In this document: one piece after another, positions 35,290 through 63,823 of the stretch | How positions within the stretch are numbered: the stretch's first letter is position 1 | Layout: the number at the start of each line of letters is the position of its first letter | Source of the DNA: Eledone cirrhosa | Taxonomy: Eukaryota | Assembly: GCA_964016885.1 (NCBI GenBank) | Contig: OZ024766.1 | Location: 3,348,001 to 3,412,000 of the forward strand | Direction of reading: 5' to 3' | Length of the DNA: 64,000 nt | Position numbers and translations under genes: made by a program | Notes under the pieces: model-generated | What the model was told of the DNA's origin: nothing | Database searches by the model: none | What the model saw: the letters and a program-made list of their open reading frames with translations, nothing else

Positions 35290-35334
35290 CAGAATATTAA
35301 TAAATGAAAGACATTCACATAATCAAAATATATG

Positions 35335-35397
35335 TTTTATTATATATATTTCGGAGGTACTGTGCTGTTTTTTTCAGTACGTCCTCATCAGATAAAA
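35335..35397 (-). ncRNA. Minimal type I hammerhead ribozyme motif (family H1) upstream of the cdc20 ATG exon
   Basis: TTTTAT-CTGATGA-GGAcGTACTG...CAGTACcTCC-GAAA-TATATA-TA-ATAAAA. Confidence 0.75.
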
Positions 35398-35469
35398 TAT
35401 ATAAATTGATATACGACATACCTCAACAGTTTTGTTGGTTCAATTCCAGTACTGGCAGTCTATATAGGG

Positions 35470-35515
<46 letters not shown>

Positions 35516-35607
35516 CACGTCCTAGCCATGCTAGTGCGAATGATAGGCGTTAAACGATGATGATATATAAATGTATATATATATATATGTATATAAATGT
35601 ATGTATG

Positions 35608-35662
<55 letters not shown>

Positions 35663-35929
35663 GCATTTGTTATGTATATATTTAAAACATATTTGCAACG
35701 TTATTCTATTGTAAATTTATACAATATAAATGGTTGGTGTATACGCGCTTATACATACATGTATATATGTGCGTATACCTATATATATATATGTGTGTGT
35801 TTGGTATAAATATATGTTTGGTGTATAAAGCGTATGAGAAGATATTGTTTGGTGTATATATATATATATATATATATAACTGGAATTGATCCATCAGCAC
35901 AGTTGAGGTATATATATACACATTTGATG

Positions 35930-36167
35930 TAAATATAAATATATATATATTTGGTGTAAATATATATATATATATTTGAAGTAAATATATATATATATAT
36001 TTGAAGTAAATATATATATTTGAAGTAAATATATATATATTTGAAGTAAATATATATATATATATTTGGTGTAAATATATATATATATATTTGAAGTAAA
36101 TATATATATATATATTTGAAGTAAATATATATATTTGAAGTAAATATATATATATATATATTTGAAG

Positions 36168-36203
<36 letters not shown>

Positions 36204-36350
36204 CTTCAAATATATATATATACATTTGATGTAAATATAAATATATATATATTTGGTGTAAATATATATATATATATATATATTTAAAGTAAATATATAT
36301 ATATATATATTTACTTCATATATATATATATATTTAAAGTAAATATATAT
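35930..36350. repeat. TTTGAAGTAAA-(TA)n compound repeat with inverted copies
   Basis: Direct inspection. Confidence 0.85.
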
Positions 36351-36479
36351 ATATACGGTATATATTGCATACCGTATATCATATGTCTATATATAATTTA
36401 AAACACGTCATTTTGAATATGGCAAATAATGATAAAACAAAATACTTGTTATAATATAACAAAAACCATTAAAACTTAC

Positions 36480-36650
36480 ACTATCTCGGTTGAAATATCC
36501 TTATATAGAAATATAATTATCCGTTTGTTAATTAATACAGAGGAGAATCTTAATTAAAACTCAACAAATTAATCGATTCCAAGTTTAAGAGCGGAGAGAG
36601 ATCGTTACTTAATGAAGTTCACAGATGCTAGAAAGGCAGTTAGAGTGATT
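36480..36650 (-). other. cdc20: Probable non-coding first exon of cdc20 (5' end approximate)
   Basis: Non-repetitive island ending in a GTAAGT donor (36479-36474), directly downstream of CCAAT/CHR-like motifs. The ATG exon has an acceptor, so an upstream exon is required. Confidence 0.55.
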
Positions 36651-36655
36651 GAAAA

Positions 36656-36718
36656 TTCGAAATTTACCACCTCGACGTTGATTGGCTAAAAGTTTGCACC
36701 GTACTTGAATTTGATTGG
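36656..36718 (-). promoter_or_regulatory. Putative G2/M-type promoter: two CCAAT boxes 33 bp apart plus CHR-like hexamers
   Basis: ATTGG at 36681-36685 and 36714-36718; TTCGAA at 36656-36661; CTTGAA at 36704-36709. Confidence 0.55.
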
Positions 36719-36731
36719 TTAATTATTTTCC

Positions 36732-37278
36732 TTGGCAGTATCGGTAGAGGGTCAGTCACCATGCTTTCCAAGCATAGAGTTACGTCCCTTTACGATCTGA
36801 GTTCAAATCCCGCCGAGGTTGACTTTGCCTTTCACCCTAACGGGGTCGATAAAATACCAGTAATGCACTGGGGTAATTGCTGGCCTTGTGCCTAAAGTAG
36901 AAACAGTTATATTATGTATGACTTTCGATTTTGTTTTGTTACAAAACTTTAATAACTGTTGTTTCTATTTTGGGGACAAGGCCAGCAATTACCCAGTGTA
37001 TTACTGGTACTTTAGATATATAATAACTGTTTCTACTTTAGGCACAAGGCCAGCAATTATATCAGTGTATTACTGGTACTTTATTATATCTACCCCGTAA
37101 AGATGAAAGGCAAAGTTAACCTCGGCGGGATTTGAACTCAAGTTCAACCGGAGGTTAGCTTTGCTTTTCATCCTTACGGGGTCGATAAAATAAAGTACCA
37201 GTAATACAGTGGTGTCGTTTTAATCGATTTTGCCCTTCCCAAAATTACTGGCCTTGTGTCGGAAGTAGAAACAATTAT
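36732..37278. mobile_element. Cluster of SINE family B copies in both orientations
   Basis: Plus 36732-36910, minus 36955-37140, plus 37141-37278. Confidence 0.85.
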
Positions 37279-37299
37279 ATTTGTCAACTATATTTTACA

Positions 37300-37785
37300 A
37301 AAAGAGGCGGTTTTCCTTTGTGTGATAGCTATGGCGAAAGAGGTTGTATGGTGGACAAGGTTGAAAGGGCTGAGGTCAGACACCTTTCTCTACGACCAAC
37401 AACTGATTCTTTTTTTCAAATACCACTTTGGAAGAAGAGTCAGGATGGAGAGAGAGGTGCTGTACCCCAGCAAGTTTTATGAAAGGTGGGTGAAAGTGGC
37501 GAGAATGGCCCCAGTGAATGGGCCTTCTCTCTATATCAGCCTGTAGGTTGAGGAAAAGGAGGAGGAGAGGAAAGGAGTACAAACTCTTCGTACTCCTGGA
37601 GATGAGGGTTGCACATTTTTTCGGGGGAATGTGTTACCCATATGTAATGTCTCCCCCTATCGGGGAAAATCGACTAATTTTTTAAATTGCATTTGTGATA
37701 ACATTTTACACGTTTTTACTGTATGTAAACTTCCCCCTTTGTATTTGTCCCCTTCTTTTGTGCCCCTGTGGCTAATAAAGAAACA
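37300..37785 (+). mobile_element. LINE 3' end (L1/Tx1-like) with 3' UTR and AATAAA
   Basis: ORF end [21 protein letters not shown]..; repeated at 54371-54735 and 54760-55065. Clade assignment is tentative. Confidence 0.6.
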
Positions 37786-61555: not shown

Positions 61556-61814
61556 CCTACACGGCATTCCTTTTATATTGACAAAAAATGGACCGGTCTA
61601 TGTTTTTATAGGGGTGAGGGGGAATATTTGTTCAAACTGGTTGATAACAGAAATAAACGCCTACCTGACATCTCTTTATTGAAAAAAATAAAAAATGGAC
61701 TGGTCTATATTTTTATAGGGGTGAGGGGAGCATATAATGGAAATAAAACCTATATGGTTCCATCCCCTCTCATATTAAGAGGAATGGACTGGCCATTGGT
61801 ATGTATGTGTATAC

Positions 61815-61859
<45 letters not shown>

Positions 61860-61895
61860 AAAACATATATATACATACATATATACACACATACA

Positions 61896-61926
<31 letters not shown>

Positions 61927-62151
61927 TGGAAAATGTGTGAGATCCTTGGTACAGTTAGGTGTATTTGAAAAAAGGAAAAGAATGACTTCACTTGTAGTTC
62001 TAAACAATTTATACTTAAATTTATAATATTTGTTTCTACTTTAGGCACAAGGCCAGCAAATACCCAGTTCATTACTGGTACTTTATTTTATCGACCCCGT
62101 AAGGATGAAAGGCAAAGTCAACTTAAATTTATAATATTATGAGTTGGTAGA

Positions 62152-62459
62152 TCTACTAAGTTCTTTGTTAACTTCAGTGGGAAGGTTTTTAAAGATTCCT
62201 GGTTAACTTTCCTGGAGAACTTTCTCACACATTCCCGTGTGTATCATGACTCATGCACTGTTCATTTTCCTGATGTTTGTACATTACCCTATGTACTATA
62301 CATACACTTTTTGATGAGTTGTAGTGCACCTGAGCACTGTACACAATATTTCATTATTATTATTATTATTCAAACCGACGAATGTGAGAAAGTTCTCCAG
62401 GAAAATTAACCAGGAATCTTTAAAAATCTTCCCACTGAAGTTAACAAAGAACTTACTAG
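62152..62459. repeat. About 80-bp inverted repeat (62152-62234 versus 62380-62459)
   Basis: AAGTTCTTTGTTAACTTCAGTGGGAAG...CTGGAGAACTTTCTCACA and its reverse complement. Confidence 0.88.
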
Positions 62460-62714
62460 AAATATAAGGAAAACACAAAGGACAGATCCCCTCATCAGTT
62501 GTCTGCTGTGGGTCTTGGACGTTTCGACGCATCAAAGACAATACATCTATCCACAGGGCGTCAATAACTAGAAACTTATTGGGGAAAAGAAAAGACGAGG
62601 AGACGATGGCGAGAGAGAAAGAAAATAAATAAAAAGAAAAAATACAGAAAACATACCAATAAAGGGGAAGAAACTCATACATGGACATTTCTCATATATA
62701 TATATATATATAAT

Positions 62715-63040
62715 AATTGTTTCTACTTTTGGCACAAGGCCAGTACATTACTGGTACATTACTGGTACTTTATTTTATCGACCCTGTAATAAATGTTTCT
62801 ACTTTTGGCACAAGGCCAGCAAAATTACTCAGTACATTACTGGTACTTTATTTTATCGACCCTGTAATAAATGTTTTTACTTTTGGCACAAGGCCAGCAA
62901 TTACTGGTACTTTATTTTATCAACTCCGTAAGGATGAAAGGCAAAGTTAACCTCGGCGGGATTTGAGCTCAGATCATAAAGGGCCGTAACTCTATGCTGG
63001 AAAGCATGGCGTCCGACCCTCTACCGATACTGCCAATCCA
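62715..63040 (-). mobile_element. SINE family B with a triplicated 3' end
   Basis: Matches the family B consensus. Confidence 0.87.
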
Positions 63041-63122
63041 CATTTAATAATAGAAAGGAATATATTTAATACCTTCACTCCATTTTTTTTTATTCAATAT
63101 TTTTTCCACCATTTTCATTCTT

Positions 63123-63167
<45 letters not shown>

Positions 63168-63298
63168 GAAGTTCTATTTAGATTGTTGGGTTACAACAAG
63201 CAAATATTTTTATAACTGATATAAAGCACTCAACAAATTATTGGAGTAAAAATACGATATATTAACAAATGGAAACTATATTTATAAAACCATATTTA

Positions 63299-63359
63299 TT
63301 TCATTATACATATTTCAAGGATACCAAGTTAAATTATGGTGTGCTTTCATCAGATAAAA
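63299..63359 (-). ncRNA. Minimal type I hammerhead ribozyme motif (family H1)
   Basis: TTTTAT-CTGATGA-AAGCACACCA...TGGTATCCTT-GAAA-TATGTA-TA-ATGAAA. Confidence 0.65.
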
Positions 63360-63472
63360 TATAATATAGATCAGTTTTATAAATAAATATTGATATCCCC
63401 TTAAAGAATGCGACCATTTCTGTTGGGAGCTTCCAACAGAAATGGTCGCATTCTTTAAGGTTATGTCAATAT

Positions 63473-63672
63473 CTATCTATCTAAGGCGGGTAAAATTCCC
63501 GAGATCCATGGACGAGTTCTCTCCAGCGGTCTCTGACCCTCATTATCACTGCCATGTCCTGCGTCTCCAACAGACCAGTGTCTGTCCTCAGGGCATCAAC
63601 ATATGTTAACCTTGGTCTTCCTTTTCTAGTGTGTCCATGTAGGGGCTCCCACAGGAGCACTGAGTGCAATGT
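63473..63672 (-). mobile_element. RTE-like 3' fragment flanked by a 10-bp direct repeat ATGTCAATAT
   Basis: Same family as 20193-20390; repeats at 63463-63472 and 63669-63678. Confidence 0.85.
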
Positions 63673-63705
63673 CAATATTTATTTATAAAACTGCTCTATA
63701 TTATA

Positions 63706-63766
63706 TTTTATCTGAAGAAAGCACACCATAATTTAACTTGGTGCCCTTCAAATATGTATAATGAAA
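63706..63766 (+). ncRNA. Hammerhead motif (family H1) with GAAA changed to CAAA, probably inactive
   Basis: TTTTAT-CTGAAGA-AAGCACACCA...TGGTGCCCTT-CAAA-TATGTA-TA-ATGAAA. Confidence 0.6.
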
Positions 63767-63823
63767 TAAATATGGTTTTATAAATATAGTTTCCATTTGT
63801 TAATATATCATATATATATACAT

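What the first reader, a model, noticed from the sequence alone, without database searches (positions are those of the whole stretch)
35290..63806. Dispersed family of short non-coding elements built around a hammerhead ribozyme (family H1, five copies)
Seen: five related AT-rich elements of about 150-250 bp (about 35290-35450 minus, 59340-59515 plus, 59545-59690 minus, 63255-63400 minus, 63670-63806 plus). Each carries TTTTAT-CTGANGA-[hairpin]-GAAA-TAT(A/G)TA-TA-AT(A/G)AAA; one copy has CAAA for GAAA. Apart from that, the core varies only at the free N7 position (T, C, A), while stem II changes sequence but stays largely paired. This looks like selection on RNA structure. Known: minimal type I hammerheads with a short palindromic stem III are typical of Penelope-like retroelements and of non-autonomous retrozymes, and can cleave as dimers. 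Inference: a self-cleaving, non-autonomous retroelement family that inserts into (TA)n and may produce small linear or circular RNAs. No encoded protein is visible.
Basis: partly seen in the sequence, partly recalled or inferred. Interest (0 to 1): 0.85.

Follow-up and report, generated by a model that had tools for sequence, protein, structure and literature searches.

The report
Hammerhead-bearing Penelope tails in an octopod
The five hammerhead-ribozyme motifs are real and sit at the ends of a very abundant octopod repeat that is most likely the truncated tail of a Penelope-like jumping gene, a known pairing; whether they cut RNA is untested.

Summary
Observation confirmed. Four copies carry an exact type I hammerhead core and a fifth has G12C; 0 of 40 shuffled windows gave an exact-core hit. 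Helix II changes fast but keeps pairing (7 of 9 pairs compensatory). Two corrections: the five copies are four insertions, because D and E are one head-to-head hairpin of 180-bp arms later split by a LINE piece with a 10-bp target duplication; and copy A is a distant subfamily. Reads from the same species show a high-copy family with a shared 3' end in (TA)n, an optional ~90-nt 3' tail, depth falling toward the 5' side and no common head-to-tail joint. This is the published anatomy of truncated Penelope-like elements (PLEs), closest to the Hydra clade, already known from Octopus. It is not a retrozyme: no tandem arrays, and copy ends do not fall at the cut site. No RT/GIY-YIG ORF was reachable, so 'non-autonomous' is neither shown nor excluded. 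Cleavage and expression are untested. New member of a known kind; one lead is a tail hairpin resembling Hydra consensus tails.

The parts
35286..35469 (-). Copy A, distant subfamily; intact core from 35391, G10.1-C11.1, helix III AUAUAUAU, predicted cut between 35341 and 35340; (TA)n on both sides
59326..59518 (+). Copy B, longest 5' extent (91 nt upstream of the core at 59417); intact core, strongest helix II; predicted cut after 59466; sense strand of intron 2 of a glutathione peroxidase gene; (TA)n on both sides
59543..59694 (-). Copy C, tail-to-tail with B across a shared (TA)n; core from 59644; G.G mismatch in helix II; 79% identical to B, so likely a separate insertion
63252..63429 (-). 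Copy D, left arm of the hairpin insertion; intact core from 63353; predicted cut after 63305
63165..63251 (-). Optional 3' tail joined to D; multi-copy and joined to the hammerhead at other loci; ends in (TA)n; holds a hairpin at 63248-63228 (outer stem, 2-nt 3' bulge, inner stem-loop)
63430..63472 (+). 5' piece of the right arm (inverted copy, zero spacer, centre 63429/63430); 63463-63472 is the left target duplication
63473..63668 (-). Later insertion: 196-nt 3' piece of another high-copy repeat (LINE-like, short microsatellite tail; 96% identical to 20202-20375), flanked by a 10-bp duplication that is partly microhomology
   Evidence: LINE type is inferred
63669..63811 (+). Copy E, rest of the right arm; core from 63712 with G12C, predicted inactive; no tail; ends in (TA)n

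Best explanation
These are most likely 5'-truncated 3' ends (pseudo-LTR region) of Penelope-like retroelements, probably close to the Hydra clade, pasted into (TA)n microsatellites. Shown: fixed 3' end, variable 5' end, (TA)n flanks, one head-to-head inverted insertion with a tail on one side only, high copy number, type I hammerhead about 100 nt from the end. Inferred mechanism: an RT/GIY-YIG protein nicks AT-rich DNA, primes reverse transcription at one of two sites in an uncleaved element RNA (giving short and tailed ends), stops after 150-280 nt and sometimes snaps back to make the inverted arm. The hammerhead would act in the master's tandem transcript as a dimer or with protein help; selection acted on the masters (helix II covariation between subfamilies) and the genomic copies now decay.
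For: Common 3' junction to (TA)n: 5,153 and 1,264 reads with TA loose ends at 63264 and 63259. Depth falls toward 5': X1 summed depth 3.76M, 1.00M, 0.16M, 0.04M at 63291, 63361, 63403, 63417; X21 plus mates 3300, 876, 268, 213. Window copies have different 5' ends (B 91 nt, D/E 76 nt, C about 50 nt upstream of the core) and matching 3' ends. D+E arms 169 of 180 identical, zero spacer, tail on one side, as described for PLE insertions (PMC8557442 passage). Opposite-strand hammerhead pairs 100-700 bp apart were already ascribed to truncated PLEs (PMC4209133). Hydra-clade PLEs have a type I hammerhead near the 3' end, target (TA)n and occur in Octopus. Two 3' ends from two RT start sites in uncleaved RNA were shown in vitro for a Poseidon element (PMC11167929). 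Host is an octopod (CDC20 exon 78% to Octopus sinensis); PLEs are 6.83% of the O. vulgaris genome, 190 families.
Against: No RT or GIY-YIG piece in the 150 of 195 unmasked ORF pieces scanned. The 32-aa frame upstream of D has no relative among 1.84 billion proteins. No sequence match to Hydra-1_Obim or the octopus Naiad ends as printed. The tail is about 90 nt, against 30-40 bp in the papers. The depth decline is partly technical: D has private substitutions at 63394 and 63397, X21 is RAD-seq with a step at 63333, and the tool warns depth is no copy number. The decline is steep enough to fit a short non-coding master too.
Confidence: 0.62

Rival explanations
1. A short protein-free Penelope derivative (SINE-like, about 200-290 nt) that keeps the hammerhead and tail hairpin and is moved in trans by an autonomous PLE.
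For: No ORF in or near any copy. Very few reads reach more than 80 nt upstream of the core. A 2026 preprint derives animal retrozymes from PLE pLTRs.
Against: No fixed 5' end in four insertions or in the depth profile. PLE insertions are described as heavily 5'-truncated, which gives the same picture.
Confidence: 0.25
2. A non-LTR retrozyme: tandem 170-400 nt units cut to monomers and circularised, then reinserted.
For: Type I hammerhead, AT-rich, self-paired unit of similar size; retrozymes are known in a mollusc. One single-locus joint goes back from 63393 to 63268 (depth 12.9).
Against: No tandem units in the window. The 15 of 27 joints shown are all at single-locus support against summed depth near a million. 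Ends do not coincide with the cut site. Inverted insertion and optional tail are PLE traits.
Confidence: 0.06
3. Copy B is a host-used intronic ribozyme that cuts the glutathione peroxidase pre-mRNA.
For: B is on the sense strand of intron 2 with an intact core and the best fold (z -3.15; exons).
Against: Monomer helix III probability about 0. In the pre-mRNA B is predicted to pair with antisense copy C, which removes helix I and II (P at most 0.015). No partner copy in the same orientation. No sign that B is conserved at this locus in other species.
Confidence: 0.04
4. A TA-targeting miniature DNA transposon whose hammerhead likeness is incidental.
For: TA flanks; D+E form long inverted arms; a 12-bp internal inverted repeat encloses the motif.
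Against: A, B and C have no terminal inverted repeats; fixed 3' and variable 5' polarity; complete core plus covarying helix II in two distant subfamilies.
Confidence: 0.03

Closest known systems
Hydra-clade Penelope-like elements, e.g. Hydra-1_Obim (Craig et al. 2021, PMC8557442; passages, sections 3 and 11, supplement parts 2 and 53 and term searches seen)
   Same: Type I hammerhead near the 3' end, near-palindromic helix III, (TA)n targets, present in Octopus, A-U at the base of helix II in Hydra-1_oBim; longer consensus ends (Amil2, Ajap2) carry a hairpin shaped like D's tail hairpin.
   Different: No sequence similarity to the printed Hydra-1_Obim end; helix III is 8 nt rather than 9-10; helix II is longer with a C.C mismatch kept in all five copies; tail about 90 nt; no ORF in hand.
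Hammerheads in pLTRs of metazoan PLEs (Cervera and de la Pena 2014, PMC4209133; main text parts 1-2 of 4 and supplement file 2 part 2 seen)
   Same: U-rich upstream, long variable helix II, palindromic helix III, dispersed single motifs and opposite-strand pairs; an 8-nt palindromic helix III occurs in D. willistoni.
   Different: Not minimal: helix I is 6-8 bp; B-E have A10.1-U11.1 and no extra unpaired base; no octopod example in the part of the alignment seen.
Non-LTR retrozymes (Cervera and de la Pena 2020, PMC7229834, parts 2-3 of 6; Li et al. 2026 bioRxiv 10.64898/2026.07.22.740005, parts 1-3 of 5)
   Same: Type I hammerhead, non-coding as seen, similar unit size, PLE kinship.
   Different: No tandem arrays, variable 5' ends, inverted insertion, optional tail; circular RNA not shown.
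Poseidon element PAc of Anolis (Frangieh et al. 2024, PMC11167929, parts 1-2 of 4)
   Same: Two alternative 3' ends; insertion into AT-rich DNA; copies keep the uncut hammerhead.
   Different: There the hammerhead overlaps the ORF start; here the AUG inside the core of D reads only 12 codons to a stop.

Membership tests
Type I hammerhead ribozyme | Core CUGANGA, GAAA and UH around a three-way junction closed by helix I | tested here: met
   4 of 5 copies exact, E has G12C
Type I hammerhead ribozyme | Covarying helices | tested here: met
   Helix II 7 of 9 pairs with two-sided change, 0 of 500 shuffles reach it; rests on three lineages and a structure drawn from these copies; helices I and III barely vary
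Type I hammerhead ribozyme | Match to an Rfam hammerhead model | tested here: not met
Type I hammerhead ribozyme | Self-cleavage at the UH site | not testable with these tools
   Monomer helix III predicted unstable
EN+ Penelope-like element | ORF with telomerase-like RT and GIY-YIG nuclease | tested here: inconclusive
   None in the window pieces scanned or for the upstream frame; no whole genome held; truncated copies are not expected to have it
EN+ Penelope-like element | 5' truncation with shared 3' end | tested here: met
EN+ Penelope-like element | Inverted 5'-truncated copy adjoining the 5' end | tested here: met
   D+E, 169 of 180 identical, zero spacer
EN+ Penelope-like element | Optional 3' tail, often at one end only | tested here: met
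   Tail on D, absent from A, B, C, E; joined to the motif at other loci (contig records 1 and 2); longer than the published 30-40 bp
EN+ Penelope-like element | Partial tandem forming pLTR-ORF-pLTR | not testable with these tools
   Needs the assembly
Hydra clade | RWK, DKT and CxCX5C protein motifs, no CCHH | not testable with these tools
   No ORF available
Hydra clade | Canonical hammerhead near the 3' end and (TA)n targeting | tested here: met
   (TA)4 begins 99-101 nt after the core in B, C, E; shared with other clades, so not diagnostic
Non-LTR retrozyme | Head-to-tail tandem units each with a hammerhead | tested here: not met
   (15 of 27 joints shown)
Non-LTR retrozyme | Abundant linear and circular monomer RNA | not testable with these tools
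   No run on record as RNA was listed

The most novel reading that the evidence does not exclude
A protein-free 'Penelope SINE' of about 200-290 nt has spread through octopod genomes using two RNA parts only: a dimer-type hammerhead with a long, C.C-mismatched helix II, and a tail hairpin shared with Hydra-clade elements that is the docking and priming signal for the Penelope RT. That hairpin would be an undescribed cis element that explains the PLE tail.
Probability: 0.2. Interest if true: 0.6.

Novelty: new member of a known kind. Interest (0 to 1): 0.3.

Why it matters
As it stands it adds an octopod family to a well-described pairing of hammerheads with Penelope-like ends, and corrects the reading from 'retrozyme' to 'truncated PLE end'. 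What PLE hammerheads do is still open: in the one reconstituted system cleavage needed protein and was dispensable for insertion. A high-copy family with many subfamilies, a constant helix II mismatch and a candidate tail hairpin gives good material for covariation tests of which RNA parts the element needs. If the master proved protein-free it would be a clear SINE-like partner of PLEs.

Tried and rejected
No whole genome is held, so no genome-wide consensus. Exact pattern scans of metagenome and viral contigs: 0 matches each. Rfam: nothing relevant. A covariance model from the five copies found no sixth close member in the window; the next scores were 24.5 bits or less. No RNA holder listed; the one 'RNA?' run laid, from another organism, covered only the LINE-like piece: neither is evidence on expression. 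Possible coding frame upstream of D: B and D share a few third-position changes, but no protein hit; rejected as unsupported. Naiad origin considered because octopus Naiads target (TA)n and are flagged HHR_half_core; rejected, their printed 3' end has GAAA before CTGATGA and no likeness. Short family motifs were not found in the supplements of PMC8557442, PMC13282606 or PMC4209133 file 2; file 1 of the last was not searchable, bioRxiv supplements are closed, and Repbase/Dfam or the O. vulgaris library itself could not be checked. Lunse et al. (PMC5785218) is not held; known only through PMC6765202 passages. The tail motif is not enriched window-wide (5 vs mean 1.88, max 7) and does not fold the same way in the second family that has it. 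Earlier-finding look-ups by sequence and place were empty.
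Full report
Observation. I label them A (core 35391, minus), B (59417, plus), C (59644, minus), D (63353, minus) and E (63712, plus). Each reads helix I (6 bp in A, 8 bp in B-E), CUGANGA, a 30-32 nt helix II hairpin, GAAA (CAAA in E), an 8-nt self-complementary helix III (AUAUAUAU in A, AUAUGUAU in B-E) and the triplet AUA. 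A descriptor written after seeing them gave 5 exact-core hits in the window, four of them A-D, and 0 in each of 40 local dinucleotide shuffles. Rfam has no model that reaches them.

Structure signal. On the five-row alignment 96 of 100 cells pair; in helix II 7 of 9 pairs change on both sides, and 0 of 500 shuffles reach that. This rests on three lineages (A, B, C/D/E) and on a structure drawn from them, so it is not a probability. B and D differ at 3 of 62 flank columns but 8 of 31 helix II columns; A and B differ at 25 of 62 flank columns and 0 of 12 core positions. A C.C mismatch after the third pair of helix II is kept in all five. Among the 40 of 94 read-variant rows shown, 9 fall in the hammerhead span of D and none on the 12 core positions, which chance would give with P 0.14; the two in helices I and III swap U.G for U-A. 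Monomer helix III has predicted probability about 0 and its sequence can pair with a second copy over 8 bp, the dimer design described for PLE hammerheads. Cleavage is untested.

Host and setting. A CDC20 exon is 78% identical to the Octopus sinensis protein and 63% to Argonauta, so the window is from an octopod. B and C lie in intron 2 of a glutathione peroxidase gene; D and E lie about 1.7-2.2 kb past its stop codon. In the sense pre-mRNA B is predicted to pair with C, which abolishes its fold. No RT or GIY-YIG match was found in the 150 longest of 195 unmasked ORF pieces.

Four insertions, not five. D and the stretch from 63430 form a zero-spacer hairpin. The right arm is interrupted at 63473-63668 by a piece of another repeat, flanked by a 10-bp duplication (partly microhomology) and 96% identical to a copy at 20202-20375. 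Without it the arms are 169 of 180 identical. Only the D side carries an extra ~90 nt before the (TA)n. An inverted 5'-truncated copy next to the 5' end and a tail at one end only are the described marks of PLE insertions (PMC8557442); opposite-strand hammerhead pairs 100-700 bp apart were ascribed to truncated PLEs in 2014.

Genome-wide picture from reads (one stretch, 63165-63560, four runs). In runs of the same species label 10,431 contigs (X1) and 38,392 reads (X21) were laid on 396 bases, part of them on the LINE-like piece. The family is high-copy; the tool's depth gives no number. Of 24 of 618 loose-end rows shown, two put (TA)n at 63259-63264 (1,264 and 5,153 reads): a shared short 3' end. 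The tail is also multi-copy and is bridged to the hammerhead by divergent contigs and by reads with B-type helix II: a second, longer 3' end. Depth falls toward the 5' side in X1 (3.76M, 1.00M, 0.16M, 0.04M) and in X21 plus mates (3300, 876, 268, 213). Caveats: X21 is RAD-seq with a step at 63333, probably a restriction site in B-type helix II (inferred), X4 shows the same step, and D's private substitutions lower mapping near 63394-63427. The 15 of 27 joints shown have single-locus support; one goes back head-to-tail at depth 12.9.

Mechanism. Shown: fixed 3' ends in (TA)n, variable 5' ends, snap-back inversion, optional tail, uncut hammerhead 45-50 nt inside the short end. Inferred: target-primed reverse transcription of an uncleaved RNA by a PLE RT/GIY-YIG protein from two start sites. 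In the one reconstituted PLE, RT starts at two internal sites that define the tail, unprocessed RNA is the main template, and the hammerhead cuts only with protein present. Covariation then records selection on master elements; G12C in E and broken pairs in C, D and E record decay after insertion. Whether the master encodes the protein (0.62) or borrows it (0.25) cannot be settled here: the 32-aa frame upstream of D has no relatives and no genome is held.

Comparison. Hydra-clade PLEs have canonical type I hammerheads near the 3' end, nearly all target (TA)n, and one is from Octopus bimaculoides. In the six new Hydra consensuses the motif window starts 104-183 nt before the end; two of the longer ones end with a hairpin of a 4-5 bp outer stem, a 2-nt 3' bulge and an inner stem-loop, and Hydra-1_Ajap starts with one (by eye). 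D's tail folds the same way (z -2.1); 0 of 5,000 shuffles of the tail hold the pattern, and the 4 listed read variants inside it all fall on its 6 unpaired positions (P 0.003). The pattern was chosen after the fact, is not enriched window-wide (5 vs 1.88, max 7) and folds differently in another family, so this is a lead. Membership in Hydra needs the protein. Retrozymes are defined by tandem units and circular RNA; tandem units were tested and not met.

Novelty. Searches for hammerhead + Penelope + octopus, ribozyme + Octopus bimaculoides and related term sets listed no paper on this family, but PLEs are 6.83% of the O. vulgaris genome in 190 families, the giant squid paper counts 235 Hammerhead_1 hits, and repeat libraries could not be searched. 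Earlier agents reached the same reading in other genomes; that is not independent support. Verdict: real, new member of a known kind, interest 0.3.

Noticed in passing
window 39205-39300 (-), core at 39282: Unrelated type I hammerhead candidate with exact core, 10-bp helix I, GUA triplet; (TA)4 begins 94 nt after the core. Likely another PLE family end.
   Followed up: partly
window 28500-28572 (-), core at 28558: Unrelated exact-core type I candidate in a CDC20 intron, on the gene's sense strand, 6-bp helices I and II.
   Followed up: partly
window 59710-59876 (+), core at 59731: Degenerate hammerhead head-to-head with copy C; its helix III resembles that of Hydra-1_oBim, and a GCTC...GAGCACT hairpin like Hydra tails follows at 59815 before (TA)n.
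   Followed up: partly
window 62152-62560: 78-bp inverted arms beside a GAAAC...CTGATGA motif in reversed order with 23-nt spacing, the same order and spacing as in the printed Naiad_Obim 3' end; possible permuted hammerhead core.
   Followed up: no
window 4205-4380, 34374-34473, 59106-59246: A further dispersed family: a 118-bp hairpin insertion in (TA)n with an extension on one side, PLE-like in shape but without a CTGANGA core.
   Followed up: partly
window 54100-61555 (+): Four-exon glutathione peroxidase gene; B and C form an 84-nt, 80% complementary inverted pair in intron 2, a possible double-stranded RNA editing substrate (editing is inference).
   Followed up: no
window 2302-3123 (-): 274-aa DDE transposase fragment, Tc1/mariner-like (weak Pfam DDE_3 match).
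   Followed up: no
window 17494-30856 (-): CDC20/Fizzy exons spread among large minisatellite arrays; 57% of the window is tandem repeat.
   Followed up: no
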